Shown: positions 47,901 to 56,900 of the stretch, in pieces | Layout: each line of letters starts with the position of its first letter | How positions within the stretch are numbered: the first letter of the stretch is position 1 | Assembly: GCA_963804995.1 (NCBI GenBank) | Contig: CAWDSK010000005.1 | Location: forward strand, 1,254,457-1,318,456 | Reading direction: 5' to 3' | DNA length: 64,000 nt | From: an uncultured Acidobacteriota bacterium | GTDB lineage: Bacteria > Acidobacteriota > Terriglobia > UBA7540 | Position numbers: made by a program

Positions 47901-50900
47901 CGCCCGAGTTGTAATGCCCGAGTTGTAAAATCCGAGTCGCCTTGGCCACCAGACCAGGGAATGGGCGCGCACATGCATAGCAGCGTGTTGGTCGCGCGCG
48001 ACTACATGTTAAGCCTGGCGATTTTCCCTATCATGACAAGAACGTATGACAACGAGTTCATCTTCGGAGGCACCCATGGGATTTCAACGAGCCTGAATGG
48101 TTGATACGGCACACATGGGTTTCAGTTGCCGCCGGTTTCGAAGTCCATTGGTTCTTCGAGGCGAACTCTCAATTCCTTCAACCAAGTACGAGGGTTGGTG
48201 CCATGGGCGATGCGGCCCAGAAAGCGTAGTTTCCCGGCTATGTTGCAGCGGTTTTGCCGAATATCTTCCTTCGTGCCTGTAATGTAAACGGCGAGGAACT
48301 CCTCCATGGTTCGGGGCTTTGAAAAGAGATATGTAGCGTGGCCAAGCTGTGGCGTCTCTACGACCACACAATGCTCGAGCTCCAGGATGTACTCACTTCC
48401 AAAGAGATAAAGTCGCCGTGCTCGCTTGCAGAGCTCCTGGTAGAAGAAGGCATCGTAGTCCGGTTGCCAGTTAATCTGAGCGATGTCGAAGTTGCCGGGG
48501 ATGCCGAGGTTCCAACAGAGGCTGCGCAGTTGTCCCCTCTCCAACGGCTCGCGATCGATGCGGGCACGGACTTTGGCCAGGGCGTCGGAGAACTCACCGA
48601 AACGGTGGTAACTCTTCCGAGCGGTCTCAATTTGCTCAGCCATATCAGCCGGTAGCTTCACCTCGATGCGGCTCGGCAAGGCGGTTTCCCACTTAATCAG
48701 GTGCCACTCGCCACGCCGCTGGCGATACTTGCCCATTTGGACGAAGGTTCCCCGCAACTCGACCTTGGCGCCCATGAGATGTTTCCACTGGTTCCATGTA
48801 GCATCCCAAGCGATCGGCATGGCCGACTGGTCGAGTGTGACCTCAAGTTTCCTTCGGACATCGCGGTATATGGCGTGATCGTTGTGAAAGTCAAAATTGC
48901 GCAACGGCGCCCGGAAGCGGCGTTCCCGATGCTCGGGAGCGAAGGACAGGATTTGCGTGGCGAAGAACGTCTGCCCGTCCCGCGAGCGGTCTCCGGCGAC
49001 CAGAATCGAACCGAAGCCGCCATACGGGAAGAGCGCCGGTGACGAAGTGTCCTTCAGCAGCGAGTCATAACAAGCCCGTAACTCCGGCTGAGCCAGGATG
49101 TTGAAGGCTCGTTCCAAGGTGACACGATCAAGTTTGGAAGCACTGGATGCACGGAGTTCCAATTGGCGGAGATTGAAGGCAAGTCGCAGCTCAGCGGGCG
49201 ACGCAGACGCGCTGATCCGTAGAGTGTCATACAGGTTCGCTTGGCGCTCCCAGGCCTGGTGCCGTCTGGCGACATAGAAGTAATCGTGCACCACCTCGCA
49301 AGGCAGATGGATGGTGCCAATGCCCAGACGTCCCGCGGAAACCGCGGCCCGCACGTAGAGATGCTCTCGCTTGTCGGTCTTGGGCTGTGTGGCACAGCTG
49401 ATGGGAGCCTGGTAGAGATCGCGACTCCGAGTGGGGGACGAGGTCTTGTGAATGTAGAGTTCAGTCCCGGCGCCGGCGGAATTAATGGCCAGAGGGAATT
49501 CAATTTCGTCGCCGGGCCGGATATGTGCTCCCAGGAAGTTGGAGATGAGGATACTGCCGATATTGTTGAAGCAGCAGACAGTCTTGCCGCCCTCCTGCTT
49601 AAGCTCCGAGACAGAGCCACGGCGGATCGTCTCCGCCACTTCATTTGCCGATTGGGTGCTCGTCTCCATATGGAGTGCAGCATAGCCAGCCTGGGAGTCC
49701 GCGTCAAATGAGGTCTATTTGCTTCTAAGTTACACGTGCGTAACAAGATAATCGTGGACAAAATGGAAGGGGCGGACGCGGTGAACTTTTTTCCAGAGCA
49801 AACCAGCCGCCAGGCGTTGTGTCGTAAGGGGGAGTAACCCCTTGCTGTGGCACGATGGGTAAAGAATTACTGGAGAGGAATCCTACCAGCTATCAGGGGA
49901 CACAAGCAAAATTGCGGTAGACAATTCGGGATTTGCCTAAGGGCTTGAGCCAGAGGCAGGTCAAGAACTTCAATGGGAATCCGGCTGCCCGGCTATGTGA
50001 GTTCATAGACACTGCGGCGTTTTCTCGCGGCTAATGGTCGAGGACAGGCTCATCTACTGCGATTCTGCGCAGTTGCGGTTTTCCGGCGGGATCATAGTTT
50101 TTTCCTTGCATTCTTCCTGCGCCTGTAGTGTAATAGCTTGGTTGTGCCGACGTAGCCAAGCGTTCAAGGCACCTGCCCTGTAATCAGGAGATCGCTGGCT
50201 GAAAGCCAGTCGTCAGCTCCAGAGTTGAAAATGTTGAGATTCCCCAAACCCGGAACGACGTGCGACCGGCAAGGTAGGCCGTGCCGCATATTTGTGTGCG
50301 CCCATGGTCAGGTCGTCGATAACACCATCATGGCGACAAATCCAGGGCGCGGCGGGGGTGGGTAGAATCCATAGCACAGTTCGGATTCCAAATCAGCCCG
50401 CCCAAAAAAGGCGGGCTTTTTTATTGCTCTTTGACGAACGTTCCTTTGCTGACGTAGCCAAGCGTTCAAGGCGCCTGCCCTGTAAGCAGGAGATCACTGG
50501 TTAAAATCCAGTCGTCAGCTCCAGAGTTGAAAATGTTGAGATTCCCCAAACCCGAAACGATGCGCGAACGGCAAGGTAGGCCGTACGGCATATTTGTGTG
50601 CGCCCATGGTCAGGTCGTCGATAACACCATCATGGCGACAAATCCAGGGCGCGGCGGGGGAGGATAGAATCCAGAGCACAATCGGATTCTAAAAAAGCCC
50701 GCCCTAAAAAGCGGGCTTTTTTATTGCTCTTTGACAACTGAAAGACCCAGCAGCACAGGAGCATGGCGTAGTGGCAGCGCGGCGGTCTCCAAAACCGCAG
50801 GCGTGGGTCCGATTCCTACTGCTCCTGCCAGGGCGCGTTAGCCAAGTGGAAAGGCATCTGCCTGCAAAGCAGACAACCTCGGTTCGATTCCGAGCCGCGC

Positions 50901-53900: not shown

Positions 53901-56900
53901 ACACTCTCGTTCTCAACACGCTGGGTTTCCCGGTGGGCTTTGTCTCCTGGCAGCGGGCTATCAATTTGCAATGGCAGGACCGCGCCGTGGTGGTCACGGA
54001 AGATGCGAAGCGCATCCTCCGCTCGCCGTCCTTCGAGATGGGGATGCCACGCGTCATCAAGCTGAGGAACCATATCAGCCGGAAGCTGCGGCTGAAGGTT
54101 CCGATGTCTCGCCGTAACATCGCGATCCGCGATAACAGCTCGTGCCAGTACTGCGGCGTGGTGCTGGAAACGGCGGAGTACACCATTGACCACGTTCTGC
54201 CCAGGGCTCGCGGCGGAAGTTCGGTCTGGACGAATCTTGCGCTTGCTTGTGTCCAGTGTAACAAGCGCAAATCGGATCGAACTCCTCAAGAGGCTGGACT
54301 TACGCTCAGGCAGAAGCCTCTGGAGCCTAACCAGTTCGACCCGAGATTCAATTTCCGGCTGCACATCCACGCGTTGCGGCCGGAATGGTCGGACTACAAG
54401 GCTTACATTTATTGGAACGTCGAGCTTGAAAAGTAGTTCCCCGGTGAGCAAGCGCGGTCGTTGCAATGGTCTGAAAAGCCATAGAGTCCCGTTCGACTCG
54501 GGGACCGGGGACCAACCACTCTGGCCTCGTCTAATGGTAGGACGGCTGACTTTGAATCAGCTAATCTTGGTTCGATTCCAGGGGCCAGAGCCACTGCGAG
54601 ATCGTTTAATGGGTAGGACTCCAGATTCTGAATCTGGCAATGCTTGTTCGAATCAAGCTCTCGCAACCAGGAAACCAGGAATCCGGAAGGAAACCGGGAA
54701 ACCGGGGGCGTTTACGAGAGTGCCTGGCCCCGGCATCAGAACATAACCGCCGAGCAGAAACCCCAGCCGCTACCGGGAAGCCTTCAAAACGTCGATCAGC
54801 AGCGCGTCCTCTGATTCATGGAATCGCTTGATCTTGGGGCGAAGGTTCACGCAGACGAAGAAAATGCAGTCGGTAACACGCAGCCGATGAACGTTGGACA
54901 CGCCGGCAGGTTAACACCACGTCCCCGTACCTTCAAGGAAGAACCCACGCAGAAAAGCGCTGACCGTGAAGTTACGAGCTCTACGACGCTTGTTTCAGGG
55001 CATCAAGAATCGGCAGAATCGCGCCCCAGTATTGGAACAGATCCTGCCCTCCGGTTTTTGTCACGGGATGCTCGCTCCTCTGCTTGCGGGGGCGGCGGTT
55101 ACTTTCCCGACCGCAGGATTTTCTCCACCGTGGGCTTCAGATCAGGAAGCATGGGCCCCTCCAGCCCATGAGAGAATGCTGTATGGAATGCCCGCGACTT
55201 CGCTTTAATGGTCGCGTACCGCCGGTACACTCGCTCCTCGAAGGGTAGGTTGCCATCTTCCACTTCCTCTTCTTGCTGCCAGGTGTCGAAGATGGATTGC
55301 TCGTCGAGCTCTGGCAACGACTCAAACCATTCAAGCTGAGAAAGCGGCGGATCTCGCTTCTGGTAGTGTGAGCGGAGGGTATTAATCTCGTCTGGGCCCA
55401 GCGCTTTCCGAAGCGGGAGGAAGTTGGATTGGTCAAAGAGCACCCCGACAGGTGGGCTGAATCCAAATTTCCGATGCAGCGCCACAGGAAAGAGGGAAAT
55501 CGGGCTGTTGTTCACTGCAACGTCGAGGATGGCCCGAACAGTAGGATGGACCAGGCTTACCCAATACCGAGTCTGAGGCCCATTTGGCACGTTTAGATTC
55601 GTTCCGCGTATTGCGGTGACAGCCTCCTTGATCAGCGGCTTGTGTGAGTATGAACATAGCCGTCTGTAAATATTCTCGAAATCCCTCTTCTTTATCGCGA
55701 CGCCCGGCACTTCAAGGGCACGAAAGATTTCGTTAATCACGCCCCTGAATGGTGGCGAATCCTTTTTCCCATCGAGCCACGAATAGAGCCGTTCATAGTC
55801 TTCCTCAAAGCGTAGCTTCTCCTTCCACCAGTAGTGAAAGGTGACTAGCTCCAGAGCAGAACGAAGGGCCGCAAAAGAAGCGTGGAGACAACCGTTGAGC
55901 CCCGCAAGAATTGCCTCGCGGAGCACAGCTATGCTCTCGAAGAAGAGGTAGTTTTTTTGGGTGAACCTCCCGCGCACTGGCAGGCGAACATCTTGGAGGT
56001 CTTGGAATTCTAGGATTGCCTGGCAACTCCACACCGTGTTTTTCCACTCGCGCTCCTCAGGGAAGCCCGCGGAGCCCAATAACCGACACGCGTGGTCCCC
56101 AACCTCGGAAAGTTCGTGGCGCTCGATTCCCCAAACGTCACGCATCGCGAGCTCGCCCACGGGCTCCCGAAATGTCCGTGCCAATACATGAATTTCCATA
56201 TACTATTGCCTCCCAGGGATGTCCGAACGTTTGTTCGTGATCCGCACCAATGCCGTCATTCTCCCCGCAGACGATCCTTCTGCTTGCCGTTCTAGTCACT
56301 CATGACCGTCGACCGCGCGCAGTGGACCCTGTCGTTCCGATTGTCGGATGCGCAACTGGGAACGGAGTAGCTGGTAGCCAGTCAACGCTGTTGCCCGGTT
56401 GCCGGCGCTGGTTGCTTCCCAGCCTGCCTAATCTGTGCCAGGACCCAGAGCGCATGTCGCGATTGGACCGACCCTGCTGCCTCAGCGAAACCGGCAACTT
56501 GTTGTTCAAAGCTCTGATCGGAGACAAATGGCGCTAAGCGGCAATACCAACGAAATTCTCGCGGCGTTTCCTGTCCCTGAATTCGAGCAATGATGACTTG
56601 TTGCAGCCTGTTGCGTTGATCTCCATTAAGAGAAGCTTGGCGCAGAGGCTTGATCATGTCCGCCTTGAGATACCCCGACCGGAAGAACCAAGGATCGGCT
56701 TCAAGAAACTGCACCACCAGCTCAATCGTGCCGGGATCCTTCTTCGCCAGGAGAGACATTGCTCTCCCGAGCCCTCCGGGAAAAGCGAGGTTATCGTACC
56801 GAAGGTGAAACTGCAGGCACGCCTCTTCCCAAGCCTTCCTGTTACGAGCCTTCCGGCGTTTATCGCCTTCATTGCGACGGGCGAATGTGGCGTGGACTGC

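What a model noticed while it worked through the whole genome (the two positions that open the first line are those of the whole stretch)
50146..54669. Long tRNA-gene array (L-array) with embedded RtcB ligase and HNH nuclease on a mobile element, spread across family UBA7 [...]
A 4.5-kb cassette holds 28-29 tightly packed tRNA genes (17 amino acids; nearly all with encoded CCA) interrupted only by an RtcB RNA ligase (g04321) and an HNH endonuclease (g04322). It is a second, foreign tRNA set (only 67-78% identical to the best chromosomal tRNA) sitting in an ICE/plasmid-like island (SSB, PRTRC ubiquitin-like system, Mrr, helicase, DUF6876). This copy has lost the Tyr-Leu5-Ser4 (class II tRNA) block that relatives keep between tRNA-Phe and tRNA-Gln. 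It extends the 'L-array' type of tRNA operon to Acidobacteriota and shows that it moves between genera.
Evidence so far: rna.tsv and ARAGORN: 26 tRNAs at default, 28 at relaxed score, +1 Rfam-only; spacers mostly 1-10 nt. Identity to chromosomal tRNAs 0.67-0.78. BLAST of the cassette in 136 other genomes of order UBA7540: 28 have it (27 of 132 in the family, 9 of 33 genera), up to 92% identity over 4.0 kb in another genus (G502) whose rpoB/rpoC stretch is only 79% identical, i.e. horizontal spread. Relatives G502 and G451 hold 37 and 35 tRNAs incl. Tyr, 5 Leu, 4 Ser. 0 of 26 other RtcB loci (E<=1e-80) in 400 sampled Acidobacteriota have any tRNA within 1.5 kb. RNA: contigs of four peat/wetland metatranscriptome runs from four studies (X15-X18, >=90% identity) cover C5:1304505-1309273 and not the 1.5 kb before [...]
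(Added by a program. Inside this text positions count along the whole contig: contig position 1,254,457 is position 1 of the stretch shown here. "Call 12" and the like, gene names such as g00115 and contig names such as C1 are that model's own, and its searches are not shown. The text may have been shortened before it was handed on; [...] marks where a part breaks off. The agent that wrote the report below was given it as the finding of a first reader that could run no searches.)

Follow-up and report, generated by a model that had tools for sequence, protein, structure and literature searches.

The report
Mobile spare tRNA operon with ligase
A soil acidobacterium carries a horizontally acquired block of 29 tightly packed transfer-RNA genes with its own RNA-repair ligase and a nuclease: a known kind of spare tRNA set, seen here in a new phylum and preceded by an unusual small leader gene.

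Summary
Window 50146-54669 (+ strand) carries 29 tRNA-like genes for 17 amino acids, with spacers of 0-9 nt. An intact RtcB ligase (52598-53800) and an HNH nuclease (53894-54436) are embedded. The tRNAs are only 57-76% identical to the host's own. Orthologues keep their stems through compensatory changes. The cassette occurs in 26 of 132 other genomes of the family. It is 83-92% identical across genera whose tkt/zwf genes are 66-79% identical, which indicates horizontal transfer.

It fits the published L-array kind. Its HNH has 36-38% homologues beside L-arrays on cyanobacterial and mycobacterial plasmids. Linkage of HNH and rtcB to L-arrays was already reported, and a jumbo phage of Acidobacteriota combines tRNAs, HNH and a 61%-identical RtcB.

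Three things are new:
- It is the first cellular L-array I could find for Acidobacteriota.
- Two tandem leader units sit in front. Each holds a conserved 44-codon ORF rich in rare codons and a strong terminator. These units carry by far the most metatranscriptome contig depth.
- C replaces the near-universal U33 in 7 of the 29 tRNAs, and this is conserved in relatives.

Function is inferred: a back-up tRNA pool plus repair under translational stress or tRNA cleavage. An attenuator mechanism is not supported statistically.

The parts
50084..50094 (+). Degenerate remnant of a tRNA 3' end (acceptor 3' strand plus TCA). It marks the left border of the conserved cassette.
   Evidence: Alignment of left borders: the same place holds an intact T-arm and acceptor end in L017 and L023. 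Nucleotide homology with relatives starts at 50083-50105.
50106..50134 (+). Promoter-like site TTGCAT-N17-TGTAAT, 11 nt upstream of the first tRNA-like gene.
   Evidence: Read from the sequence. CTTGCAT is seen in 7 of the 9 aligned left borders (CTTGCAC in L026, CTTGCTT in L017), followed by a variable TAnnnT-like hexamer. The simple sigma-70 scan did not call it, because the -35 matches only 3 of 6.
50146..50221 (+). tRNA-Thr(UGU)-like gene, copy 1 (degenerate; C33).
   Evidence: Rfam tRNA 41.6 bits; ARAGORN only at -ps80.
50231..50365 (+). Leader ORF copy 1 (44 codons plus TAG).
   Evidence: the frame is open in 36 of 36 copies from 20 genomes, and all indels are multiples of three.
50395..50425 (+). 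Intrinsic terminator 1 (8-bp stem, 7 of them G-C, then a T tract).
50448..50523 (+). tRNA-Thr(UGU)-like gene, copy 2 (C33, T-loop TTAAAAT).
50533..50667 (+). Leader ORF copy 2 (44 codons plus TAG). It holds the rare codons AGA, AGG, ATA, ACA and CCA and ends in four Gly codons.
50690..50729 (+). Intrinsic terminator 2 (13-bp stem including A-T pairs, then a T tract), preceded by a hairpin that overlaps the stop codon.
50757..52587 (+). Run of 23 tRNA genes, Trp to Glu(UUC), with spacers of 0-9 nt. It includes the 94-nt class II-like tRNA(UAU) at 50907-51000.
52598..53800 (+). RtcB RNA ligase, 400 aa, short form. Its stop codon abuts the next tRNA.
   Evidence: Pfam 7.8e-71; phrog_1075; catalytic motifs aligned to the Pyrococcus horikoshii RtcB chain 4dwr_B.
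53801..53876 (+). tRNA-Arg(UCU).
53894..54436 (+). HNH endonuclease, 180 aa.
   Evidence: Pfam HNH_5/HNH; phrog_16726; homologues beside L-arrays on plasmids and in phage Tunturi 5.
54439..54669 (+). tRNA-Phe(GAA), tRNA-Gln(UUG) and tRNA-Gln(CUG). This is the right border of the cassette.
   Evidence: Homology with relatives ends at 54670-54675.

Best explanation
This is a horizontally mobile L-array: a supernumerary, nearly complete operon of functional tRNA genes with a co-transcribed RtcB RNA ligase and an HNH nuclease.

Most likely it serves as a reserve tRNA pool plus a tRNA-repair activity. Such a reserve would be useful when the host's own tRNAs are depleted or cut, for example under translational stress or attack by anticodon nucleases that leave 2',3'-cyclic phosphate and 5'-OH ends, which RtcB can join.

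Transcription probably starts at a conserved promoter-like site at 50106-50134. It first passes two leader units, each made of a tRNA-like gene, a 44-codon rare-codon ORF and a strong terminator. Most transcripts therefore end before the array, and only read-through or conditionally released transcription reaches the 27 downstream tRNAs and the two proteins. The mRNAs for RtcB and HNH would be released by RNase P and 3' processing of the flanking tRNAs.

Shown here: the anatomy, the foreign origin, selection on tRNA structure, transfer between genera, intact RtcB motifs, kinship of the HNH with L-array HNHs, and the presence of RNA with much more contig depth on the leader than on the array.

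Inferred: stress induction, tRNA repair by RtcB, the role of the leader, and any role of HNH in spread.
For: - Array anatomy.
- Foreign set: 0.57-0.76 identity to same-anticodon host tRNAs. No BLAST match to any other part of the genome at E<1e-6.
- Functional RNAs: in 28 orthologue groups, 98.4% of 8483 pair cells are canonical, and 323 of 571 predicted pairs show compensatory double changes.
- Redundancy: no new anticodon apart from UAU relative to the host set, as L-arrays are described (PMC8421152 section 18).
- Horizontal transfer.
- RtcB: the motifs GYDIGCG, GSGNHY, VHFGSRGFGH, HHN and STIHGAGR align with the corresponding motifs of the P. horikoshii chain.
- HNH: 36-38% identical homologues lie directly upstream of or inside tRNA arrays on Tolypothrix (21 tRNAs), Nostoc flagelliforme (10) and Mycobacterium intracellulare (26) plasmids.
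- Phage parallel: a jumbo phage of Acidobacteriota has 30 tRNAs in 19 kb, with a 35%-identical HNH and a 60.6%-identical RtcB.
- Terminators: two strong terminators lie between the promoter-like site and the array.
- RNA: summed contig depth in three peat metatranscriptomes from three studies is 190-285 (X1, X2) or about 25 (X3) over 50135-50588. It is 10-67 over 50589-50815 and at most 40 beyond. One contig (X3, 50649-51000) bridges terminator 2 into the array.
- Published precedent: in Anabaena the L-array, its HNH and rtcB are co-induced by translation inhibitors and favour survival (PMC8421152, passages; PMC10272220, passages).
Against: - No experiment bears on this cassette.
- The RNA data are contigs at 88% or more likeness, summed over relatives. 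tRNAs are poorly recovered by RNA-seq, and DNA carry-over cannot be excluded.
- Only 4 of 18 relative loci searched by tblastn hold RtcB. Nucleotide matches to the RtcB part occur in four further genomes. RtcB is therefore an accessory, not a core part.
- Several members deviate from canonical tRNAs. C33 occurs in 7 of 29. Five of the 26 default calls lack a TTCRA T-loop and one lacks the D-loop GG. Three ARAGORN calls (Ile-GAU, Phe, and the tRNA(UAU)) get no Rfam tRNA match at E<=1, and Arg-CCU scores 28.1, just below the threshold of 29. Some may therefore not work in translation.
- The simple sigma-70 scan did not call the proposed promoter.
- 2 of 5 plasmid HNH-homologue loci examined have no tRNAs, and a 39%-identical paralogue sits in a conserved chromosomal place. 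The HNH family is therefore not specific to arrays.
Confidence: 0.6

Rival explanations
1. Selfish or neutral cargo. The cassette persists because it spreads, by HNH-assisted homing or by hitch-hiking on PRTRC-type elements and insertion sequences, and because the terminators keep it silent and harmless. It gives the host no benefit.
For: - Patchy distribution: 26 of 132 genomes.
- Variable content: RtcB, the class II block and single tRNAs come and go.
- Contexts next to multi-copy elements.
- Low contig depth over the array compared with the leader.
- L-arrays of Acidithiobacillus and Anabaena are described as poorly expressed (PMC8421152 section 26).
Against: - Stems are kept by compensatory changes in all 28 orthologue groups.
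- The RtcB catalytic motifs are intact.
- The gene order is conserved at 70-92% identity across 8 genera.
All three point to purifying selection on the products, not only on transfer.
Confidence: 0.2
2. Counter-defence set. The tRNAs, some with altered anticodon loops (C33), are poor substrates for anticodon nucleases of defence systems or competitor toxins. They keep translation going for the incoming mobile element, while RtcB re-seals what is cut. Phage T5-type tRNAs are thought to work this way (recalled, not read here).
For: - C33 occurs in 7 of 29 array tRNAs, against 0 of 46 host tRNAs.
- In relatives, C33 recurs in the same isoacceptors: Ala-UGC 17/21, Ile-GAU 17/19, Thr-GGU 12/15, Thr-UGU 11/16, Val-UAC 8/11. 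Overall it is 92 of 559.
- It is absent from three known L-arrays (0 of 57) and from the phage Tunturi 5 region (0 of 30).
- At least one bacterial toxin cuts tRNA-Ile(GAU) between C32 and U33, leaving a 5'-OH and an inferred cyclic phosphate (PMC11724271, passages).
- An RtcB is embedded in the array.
Against: - No nuclease was tested.
- For one anticodon nuclease, the yeast gamma-toxin, a U33C change had no effect on cleavage (PMC2275089, passages).
- C33 may lower decoding efficiency (recalled).
- Inheritance from one ancestor explains part of the conservation.
- Most cassettes lack RtcB.
Confidence: 0.25
3. Codon-supply helper. The tRNAs adjust the tRNA pool to the codon usage of the mobile element or of a phage ancestor, as is proposed for large phages.
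For: A jumbo phage of the same bacterial class combines many tRNAs with homologous RtcB and HNH. Its authors favour a codon-usage role for phage tRNAs (PMC11924767, passages).
Against: - The set covers 17 amino acids and duplicates host anticodons instead of adding rare ones.
- Cassette tRNAs are no closer to the phage's tRNAs (0.61-0.75) than to the host's.
- The leader signature has 0 matches in 2.9 million viral contigs.
- In three genomes the cassette lies among other, non-island genes.
Confidence: 0.07

Closest known systems
L-arrays of bacteria, type case the trn operon of Anabaena sp. PCC 7120 (Santamaria-Gomez et al. 2021, PMC8421152; TrcR regulation, PMC10272220)
   Same: - A long array of tightly spaced tRNA genes in one orientation.
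- Supernumerary and redundant in anticodons.
- Patchy distribution and horizontal spread.
- An HNH gene of the same family next to the array: 36-38% identity to the plasmid copies in Tolypothrix and Nostoc.
- rtcB functionally and sometimes physically linked.
- Low basal expression.
   Different: - The phylum differs. That survey lists Acidobacteria among phyla with accretive arrays only.
- HNH and RtcB lie inside the array, not upstream or elsewhere.
- Control in Anabaena is by the repressor TrcR acting on direct repeats. That paper has no occurrence of terminator, leader or attenuat-. Here two leader ORF-terminator units precede the array.
- C33 tRNAs occur here and not in the three known arrays checked.
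- CCA is encoded in 28 of 29 here against 19 of 57 there, which follows host habit.
tRNA region of Tunturiibacter phage Tunturi 5 (jumbo phage of Acidobacteriota; PMC11924767)
   Same: Many tRNAs (43 reported; 30 in the 19 kb I scanned) interspersed with an HNH (35% identical) and an RtcB (60.6% identical, the best phage hit among 662 records). CCA is encoded.
   Different: - A lytic-type phage genome, not a cellular cassette.
- Spacers of tens to hundreds of bases, with several other ORFs between the tRNAs.
- The tRNAs are not orthologous (0.61-0.75 identity) and resemble host tRNAs more.
- No C33 tRNA (0 of 30).
- No match to one 8-nt leader-ORF word (AATCCAGG), the only check made for a leader ORF.
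tRNA arrays on mycobacterial plasmids and on the Acidithiobacillus ferrooxidans mobile element
   Same: A near-complete tRNA set on a mobile replicon. The M. intracellulare plasmid array has the homologous HNH embedded between 9 and 17 tRNAs and also a tRNA(UAU).
   Different: A different phylum, all U33, and no RtcB seen in the stretch fetched. The Acidithiobacillus case is known to me only from the reference list and text of PMC8421152.
rtcBA RNA-repair operon of E. coli and Salmonella (sigma-54/RtcR dependent)
   Same: An RtcB ligase whose expression is tied to tRNA damage and translational stress (as cited in PMC10272220).
   Different: - No RtcA and no RtcR here.
- The host's second, long-form RtcB (29.8% identical by tblastn) also lacks an RtcR within 4.3 kb.
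- A sigma-54-like GG-N10-GC overlaps both terminators, but its spacing varies from 10 to 12 nt among relatives, so I do not claim it.
Leader-peptide transcription attenuators (trp, his, thr operons; recalled textbook model)
   Same: A short ORF enriched in codons whose tRNAs are scarce, followed within about 30 nt by an intrinsic terminator, upstream of genes that supply the very tRNAs.
   Different: Complementarity between the Gly-codon run and the terminator's 5' arm is no better than in shuffles (mean z -0.18). No covariation supports alternative hairpins. The unit is duplicated and carries a tRNA-like gene at its 5' end.

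Membership tests
L-array (long tRNA gene array, sensu PMC8421152) | Many same-strand tRNA genes at operon-like spacing, far more than accretion would give. 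| tested here: met
   29 tRNA-like genes on one strand, with spacers of 0-9 nt within the runs. The host otherwise has 46 dispersed tRNAs.
L-array (long tRNA gene array, sensu PMC8421152) | Supernumerary: adds isodecoders, not new anticodons. | tested here: met
   Every array anticodon except UAU, and Pro-UGG (whose host copy is truncated in this assembly), is also in the host set.
L-array (long tRNA gene array, sensu PMC8421152) | Patchy distribution and horizontal dissemination. | tested here: met
   Present in 26 of 132 family genomes and 8 of 30 genera. The cassette is 83-92% identical where tkt/zwf are 66-79%. Flanks differ between genomes.
L-array (long tRNA gene array, sensu PMC8421152) | Non-periodic gene order. 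| tested here: met
   The only internal repeat is the 302-nt tandem leader unit. The other repeat families are shared T-arm sequence.
L-array (long tRNA gene array, sensu PMC8421152) | Linked HNH endonuclease of the family found at cyanobacterial L-arrays. | tested here: met
   36-38% identity over about 135 aa to HNH genes directly upstream of arrays in Tolypothrix and Nostoc plasmids, and inside a Mycobacterium plasmid array. 3 of 5 homologue loci examined hold arrays.
L-array (long tRNA gene array, sensu PMC8421152) | Silent in standard conditions and induced by translational stress. | not testable with these tools
   Only metatranscriptome contigs are on hand. The condition-dependence that defines the Anabaena case needs a culture.
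RtcB RNA ligase (PF01139) | Family profile match plus metal-binding Asp/Cys/His residues and the nucleophilic His. | tested here: met
   Pfam 240 bits. Aligned to P. horikoshii RtcB 4dwr_B with the GYDIxCG, GSGNH, H-x-GSRG-x-GH, HN and HGAGR motifs kept. The residue roles are recalled from the literature, not tested.
HNH endonuclease (PF01844 / PF14279) | HNH beta-beta-alpha metal motif with the catalytic His and Cys pairs. | tested here: met
   HNH_5 at 1.4e-13 and HNH at 4.3e-13 over residues 84-134. The CxxC...DH...N...CxxCN pattern is visible in the alignments. Substrate and homing activity were not tested.
Integrative conjugative element or plasmid | Integrase, relaxase and mating-pair formation genes, and defined ends. 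| tested here: inconclusive
   The Pfam scan of the window's ORFs shows SSB, PRTRC-E, prokaryotic E2, ThiF, Mrr, DUF6094, an SNF2-like helicase and DUF6876. It shows no integrase, relaxase or T4SS. The contig ends inside the island. Synteny with array-less relatives breaks at about 37157, and the SSB/PRTRC genes are multi-copy in relatives.
Leader-peptide attenuator | Translated short ORF with regulatory codons, closely followed by an intrinsic terminator. | tested here: met
   The ORF is open in 36 of 36 copies with in-frame indels only. Third codon positions vary most: 0.154/0.151/0.225. Rare codons AGA, AGG and ATA are kept in 34, 32 and 33 of 36 copies, against 0.48 expected per 44 codons. 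Terminators.
Leader-peptide attenuator | Mutually exclusive antiterminator and terminator pairings. | tested here: not met
   The duplex of the Gly-codon run with the terminator 5' arm averages -10.5 kcal/mol, no better than composition-matched shuffles (mean z -0.18). The 1:2 pairing gives mean z -0.68. RNAalifold finds almost no covariation: 2 of 24 pairs.
allo-tRNA (8/4 or 9/3 cloverleaf; PMC5389517) | 12-bp acceptor branch split 8/4 or 9/3, a long variable arm and a tRNA-Sec-like D-arm. UAU is the commonest anticodon in Acidobacteria. | tested here: not met
   The tRNA at 50907-51000 has anticodon UAU, a long variable arm and a 4-nt D-loop. It folds as a 7/5 cloverleaf in ARAGORN and RNAalifold, with compensatory changes. 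It resembles allo-tRNA(UAU) but fails the defining 8/4 or 9/3 feature.

The most novel reading that the evidence does not exclude
The two leader units are a translation-sensing gate. Ribosomes reading a 44-codon ORF stall when tRNAs are scarce or cleaved. The ORF is built around the host's rarest codons (AGA, AGG, AUA, ACA, CCA) and ends in Gly-Gly-Gly-Gly-stop. Stalling would relieve termination at the tandem terminators and switch on a mobile spare tRNA set and its RtcB ligase. The spare set itself supplies decoders for those codons. Part of it carries C33 anticodon loops that escape anticodon nucleases. This would be a self-contained, horizontally transferable feedback circuit for translational immunity.
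Probability: 0.15. Interest if true: 0.85.

Novelty: new variant of a known kind. Interest (0 to 1): 0.55.

Why it matters
L-arrays are the only known case where a bacterium's tRNA set is split into a housekeeping part and an inducible, transferable part. Only one has been studied functionally.

This family offers more than 20 natural variants in abundant soil bacteria: with and without RtcB, with the class II block in different places, and with U33 or C33 versions of the same tRNA. Together they form a ready-made comparative series.

Three open questions become testable:
- What are such arrays for?
- How are they kept silent yet inducible? Here the control differs from the repressor known in Anabaena.
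- Can tRNAs without the near-universal U33 work in translation or resist tRNA-cutting toxins?

The find also links cellular arrays to the tRNA/RtcB/HNH region of the first jumbo phage isolated on Acidobacteriota.

Tried and rejected
1. Sigma-54 promoter. A GG-N10-GC motif (GGGCTTTTTTATTGC) overlaps both terminators, and one adapter-joined contig end (X1) falls at 50739, the predicted start. The spacing varies from 10 to 12 nt among relatives, and no RtcR-type activator lies near the host rtcB. Not claimed.
2. Antiterminator pairing. It is no better than shuffles, and RNAalifold on 36 leader copies gives -16 kcal/mol with a -0.03 covariation term.
3. Weak Rfam hits (Thr, Trp and Leu leaders, RNAI) at 50660-50797 lie far below gathering scores and reflect the terminator hairpin.
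4. Folded small protein. AlphaFold2 on the 36-sequence alignment gives mean pLDDT 59 and no secondary structure. PHROGs finds nothing. The protein search finds 8 hits, none carrying a functional name (3 labelled hypothetical protein, 5 unnamed).
5. Dependence of the host on the array's tRNA-Pro(UGG). The host gene is truncated after 46-47 nt at G000:C4:198873-198918, next to mobile-element-like genes. G024 shows the same 5' fragment plus a full 95% copy 24 kb away. A replacement copy probably lies beyond the end of contig C4, so no dependence is claimed.
6. Empty-site search for the G047 cassette. The upstream flank is not conserved in 5 genus relatives. The downstream flank is a multi-copy element, with 8 copies in G048. 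No insertion site could be defined.
7. Spread beyond the family. The cassette was not found in 400 sampled genomes of the phylum, where only the RtcB gene matched in 13. The 23-nt leader signature gave 18 stretches in genome contigs, all Terriglobia or Acidobacteriota MAGs, and 0 in viral contigs.
8. HNH homologues on the Acaryochloris and Tsukamurella plasmids have no tRNAs nearby.
9. RNA cover. No contigs were laid on 49000-50134 in X1-X3, nor beyond 54675 except for trace depth (0.07-0.19) in X3 and X7. Relatives have different flanks, so this says nothing about transcript ends.
10. The search of earlier findings returned nothing for this place.
11. ARAGORN at -ps90 over the whole genome gave about 260 extra calls that are mostly false. 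Only the default set was used for host counts.

Full report
**1. What is in the sequence**

ARAGORN at default settings finds 26 tRNA genes between 50448 and 54669, all on the + strand. Rfam at gathering score adds 50146-50218 and 51872-51944. Relaxed ARAGORN adds three more calls:
- Ala(UGC) at 51872-51947;
- a 94-nt tRNA with a long variable arm at 50907-51000;
- a degenerate Thr(UGU) copy at 50146-50221.

That makes 29 tRNA-like genes for 17 amino acids. Leu, Ser and Tyr, the class II tRNAs, are missing. Spacers inside the runs are 0-9 nt.

Two ORFs are wedged between tRNAs:
- A 400-aa RtcB at 52598-53800 (Pfam 7.8e-71). Its stop codon abuts tRNA-Arg(UCU).
- A 180-aa HNH nuclease at 53894-54436.

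The RtcB keeps the motifs that align with the metal-binding and nucleophile motifs of the Pyrococcus horikoshii enzyme (the residue roles are recalled). The genome also has a second, long-form RtcB on another contig. It is only 29.8% identical to the array copy by tblastn.

**2. A foreign but functional tRNA set**

- The rest of the 7.55-Mb, 9-contig assembly holds 46 dispersed tRNAs.
- Array members are 0.57-0.76 identical to the host tRNA with the same anticodon.
- BLAST finds no match to the cassette elsewhere in the genome at E<1e-6.
- Encoded CCA does not set the array apart: 44 of 46 host tRNAs also encode it.
- I grouped orthologous tRNAs from 24 loci into 28 groups. In these, 98.4% of 8483 base-pair cells are canonical, and 323 of 571 predicted pairs show compensatory double changes. 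The structures were predicted on the same alignments, which flatters the figures. A few tRNAs from long flanks may also be included.

These are RNAs under structural selection, not decaying copies.

**3. Distribution and transfer**

- A DNA search of 133 genomes of the family gives strong cassette matches (E below 1e-100) in 26 of the 132 others, from 8 of 30 genera. One further genome has an 84-nt partial match. Eight genomes flagged as unpublished (G032, G110-G116) count here only as non-carriers.
- Gene order is nearly the same in all loci read.
- The cassette is 92, 91, 90, 83 and 87% identical in G098, G121, G047, G061 and G019. The transketolase and glucose-6-phosphate dehydrogenase genes of the same genomes are 66-79% identical.
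- Nucleotide homology starts at 50083-50105 and stops at 54670-54675.
- Flanks differ between genomes. G098 has diverged homologues (49-61% aa) of the SNF2-like helicase, DUF6094 and one unknown gene. G047, G061 and G019 have other genes beside the cassette.
- In this genome, synteny with array-less congeners breaks at about 37157. The SSB and PRTRC genes that follow are multi-copy in those congeners, so the local context is a mobile element. No integrase, relaxase or transfer genes lie in the window, and the contig ends inside the element.
- Outside the family, the cassette was not found in 400 sampled genomes of the phylum.
- A 23-nt signature of the leader gave 18 stretches in the species-level genome collection, all from Terriglobia or Acidobacteriota MAGs. 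It gave none in 2.9 million viral contigs.

**4. Variable parts**

- RtcB. By tblastn it is present in 4 of 18 relative loci (L003, L021, L025, L026). Nucleotide matches to the RtcB part occur in four more genomes (G001, G007, G016, G034). HNH is full length in 11 of the 18 loci. RtcB is thus an accessory insertion between Glu(UUC) and Arg(UCU).
- Class II block (Tyr, Leu, Ser). It lies between Phe and Gln in G098 and G068, after Gln in G047, and upstream of the leader units in G018, G061 and G070. In the window, a degenerate tRNA 3' end remains at 50084-50094, just upstream of the promoter-like site. Without a rooted tree I cannot order losses and moves.

**5. The head of the cassette**

A 302-nt unit is repeated in tandem at 93% identity. 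Each copy consists of:
- a tRNA-Thr(UGU)-like gene;
- a 44-codon ORF (50231-50365 and 50533-50667);
- a hairpin that overlaps the TAG stop;
- a strong intrinsic terminator (50395-50417 and 50690-50723).

Evidence that the ORF is translated:
- It is open in 36 of 36 copies from 20 genomes.
- All indels are multiples of three.
- All 36 peptide sequences differ, yet they share the consensus MLRFPKPETMxERQGRPxRIFVCAHxQVVDNTIMATNPGRGGGG.
- Third codon positions vary most (0.154/0.151/0.225), and the four terminal Gly codons vary synonymously.
- It holds the host's rarest codons: AGA 2.6, AGG 4.7, ATA 3.7, ACA 4.3 and CCA 6.7 per 1000. These are kept in 34, 32, 33, 20 and 35 of the 35-36 copies. Only 0.48 AGA+AGG+ATA would be expected in 44 codons. 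The codon usage comes from a crude set of long ORFs.

Evidence on the peptide:
- It does not fold in AlphaFold2 (pLDDT 59).
- It has 8 database relatives, none carrying a functional name.

Upstream of the first unit lies TTGCAT-N17-TGTAAT. Its -35 part is seen in 7 of the 9 left borders aligned, but the simple sigma-70 scan does not call it. I see no convincing promoter between terminator 2 and tRNA-Trp.

**6. RNA evidence**

I laid contigs of four metatranscriptome runs from four studies (three peat, one wetland) at 88% or more likeness. Summed contig depth by region, in X1/X2/X3:

| Region | X1 | X2 | X3 |
|---|---|---|---|
| 50135-50588 (the two leader units) | 190-285 | 190-285 | about 25 |
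| 50589-50815 | 40 | 67 | 10 |
| up to 51496 | 40 or less | 40 or less | 40 or less |
| further on | mostly under 10 | mostly under 10 | mostly under 10 |

One X3 contig (50649-51000) bridges terminator 2 into Trp, Cys and the tRNA(UAU). Another (50330-50522) bridges terminator 1.

This fits strong transcription of the leader with partial read-through. The caveats are serious:
- the depths are per contig and summed over relatives;
- tRNAs are badly recovered by RNA-seq;
- DNA carry-over is possible;
- missing cover outside the cassette is expected, because relatives have other flanks.

**7. Tests of a classical attenuator**

Complementarity between the Gly-codon run and the terminator's 5' arm averages -10.5 kcal/mol, against -12.2 for the terminator. 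That is no better than composition-matched shuffles (mean z -0.18). The pairing of the ORF's C-rich start with the Gly run is weakly better than shuffles (mean z -0.68). RNAalifold finds almost no covariation.

The pieces of an attenuator are therefore present: a translated rare-codon leader and a terminator. The defining alternative pairing is not supported. I keep a translation-sensing gate as the boldest reading, at low odds.

**8. Unusual tRNAs**

C33:
- Seven of the 29 array tRNAs have C instead of U at position 33: both Thr(UGU) copies, the tRNA(UAU), Ile(GAU), Thr(GGU), Val(UAC) and Ala(UGC). None of the 46 host tRNAs does.
- In relatives, C33 recurs in the same isoacceptors: Ala 17/21, Ile 17/19, Thr-GGU 12/15, Thr-UGU 11/16, Val 8/11, Tyr 4/6, Lys-CUU 6/22. 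Overall it is 92 of 559. These counts used ARAGORN at -ps90 on whole loci.
- C33 is absent from three known L-arrays (0 of 57) and from the phage Tunturi 5 region (0 of 30).
- Whether C33 protects against anticodon nucleases is open. One toxin cuts tRNA-Ile(GAU) exactly between positions 32 and 33 (PMC11724271). For another nuclease, U33C made no difference (PMC2275089).

The tRNA(UAU):
- This 94-nt gene is conserved in 20 loci with compensatory changes.
- It has a 4-nt D-loop and a long variable arm.
- It recalls the allo-tRNA(UAU) reported as common in Acidobacteria (PMC5389517), but it folds 7/5, not 8/4 or 9/3.

**9. Comparison with what is known**

- The L-array concept, its horizontal spread, its linkage to an HNH gene and to rtcB, and its induction by translational stress are published for cyanobacteria. 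I read passages and sections 18 and 26 of PMC8421152 and passages of PMC10272220.
- That survey lists Acidobacteria among phyla with accretive arrays only.
- My full-text searches for 'tRNA array' with 'Acidobacteria', 'tRNA array' with 'RtcB' and 'tRNA gene cluster' with 'RtcB' and 'HNH' found no report of such an array in this phylum.
- The array's HNH has 36-38% identical homologues directly upstream of arrays on Tolypothrix and Nostoc plasmids, and inside an array on a Mycobacterium intracellulare plasmid. Two other homologue loci have no tRNAs.
- The best phage match of the RtcB (60.6%) is in Tunturiibacter phage Tunturi 5. There the gene lies in a stretch with 30 tRNAs and a 35%-identical HNH. 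The paper reports 43 tRNAs and the ligase without further analysis (PMC11924767, passages). The phage's tRNAs are not orthologous to the cassette's.
- Short-form RtcB genes 58-66% identical in protein occur in other Acidobacteriota without tRNAs nearby. The ligase was probably recruited within the phylum.

**10. Verdict**

The finding is real and correctly classified. It is a new phyletic occurrence and a new variant of a known kind. Three features are worth follow-up:
- the duplicated leader ORF-terminator units;
- the conserved C33 tRNAs;
- the class II-like tRNA(UAU).

Function remains inferred.

Noticed in passing
G000 contig C4:198873-198918 (outside the window; locus L079 3874-3919): The host's tRNA-Pro(UGG) gene is cut after 46-47 nt. 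Those bases are 100% identical to the intact gene of four array-less relatives. Downstream follow a Gp3-like recombination directionality factor, an AEP primase and a sigma factor, which suggests a mobile element integrated inside the gene. The only intact tRNA-Pro(UGG) in this assembly is the array's. G024 shows the same 5' fragment with a 95% full copy 24 kb away, so a replacement copy probably lies beyond the contig end.
   Followed up: partly
window 50907-51000: A conserved 94-nt tRNA with anticodon UAU (CCUAUAA here, CUUAUAA in 17 of 20 relatives). It has a 4-nt D-loop, a long variable arm and A73, and is closest (62%) to the arrays' tRNA-Tyr. It would read the rare AUA codon. Its amino-acid identity is unknown, and it resembles but is not an allo-tRNA(UAU).
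   Followed up: partly
window 36620-37156: A second HNH gene, 39% identical to the array's, lies next to a ComF-like phosphoribosyltransferase in a place conserved in four congeners. Synteny with them ends exactly at this gene's 3' end (about 37157).
   Followed up: partly
window 39262-45037: SSB and PRTRC-type genes (PRTRC-E, prokaryotic E2, ThiF) match two to four separate places in each of G020 and G023, so a family of PRTRC elements is multi-copy in this genus. Those copies lack the tRNA cassette.
   Followed up: partly
window 50-13827: IS21 IstB, an IS66 transposase, tRNA-Gly(CCC) at about 4059 and a complete type I restriction-modification system. The R subunit is split into two ORFs at about 13282-13358. 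This may be another island at a tRNA gene.
   Followed up: no
window 19530-20966: A reverse transcriptase ORF (RVT_1, 2.3e-39) sits between sugar-kinase genes and the pentose-phosphate cluster. Whether it is a group II intron or a retron was not determined.
   Followed up: no
G000 contig C9:150030-154328 (locus L029): The host's long-form rtcB lies next to a ferritin/Dps-like gene and a group II intron-type reverse transcriptase fragment. The published cyanobacterial L-array neighbourhoods also link rtcB with dpsA.
   Followed up: no
window 50739: One metatranscriptome contig (X1) carries sequencing-adapter letters directly before 50739, about 10 nt after the T tract of terminator 2. This may mark a discrete RNA end there. 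It is a single contig and is not interpreted further.
   Followed up: no
L026 13348-14739 (G047, just downstream of its cassette): A 464-aa ORF with no Pfam match is present in 8 near-identical-length copies (76% identity to the query) in G048 and 4 copies in G044. It is probably an unclassified insertion sequence.
   Followed up: no
window 51171-51244: tRNA-Ile(GAU) has the anticodon loop CCGAUUA, that is C33 and also U37, where ANN-reading tRNAs normally carry A37. 13 of 19 relatives share this loop.
   Followed up: partly
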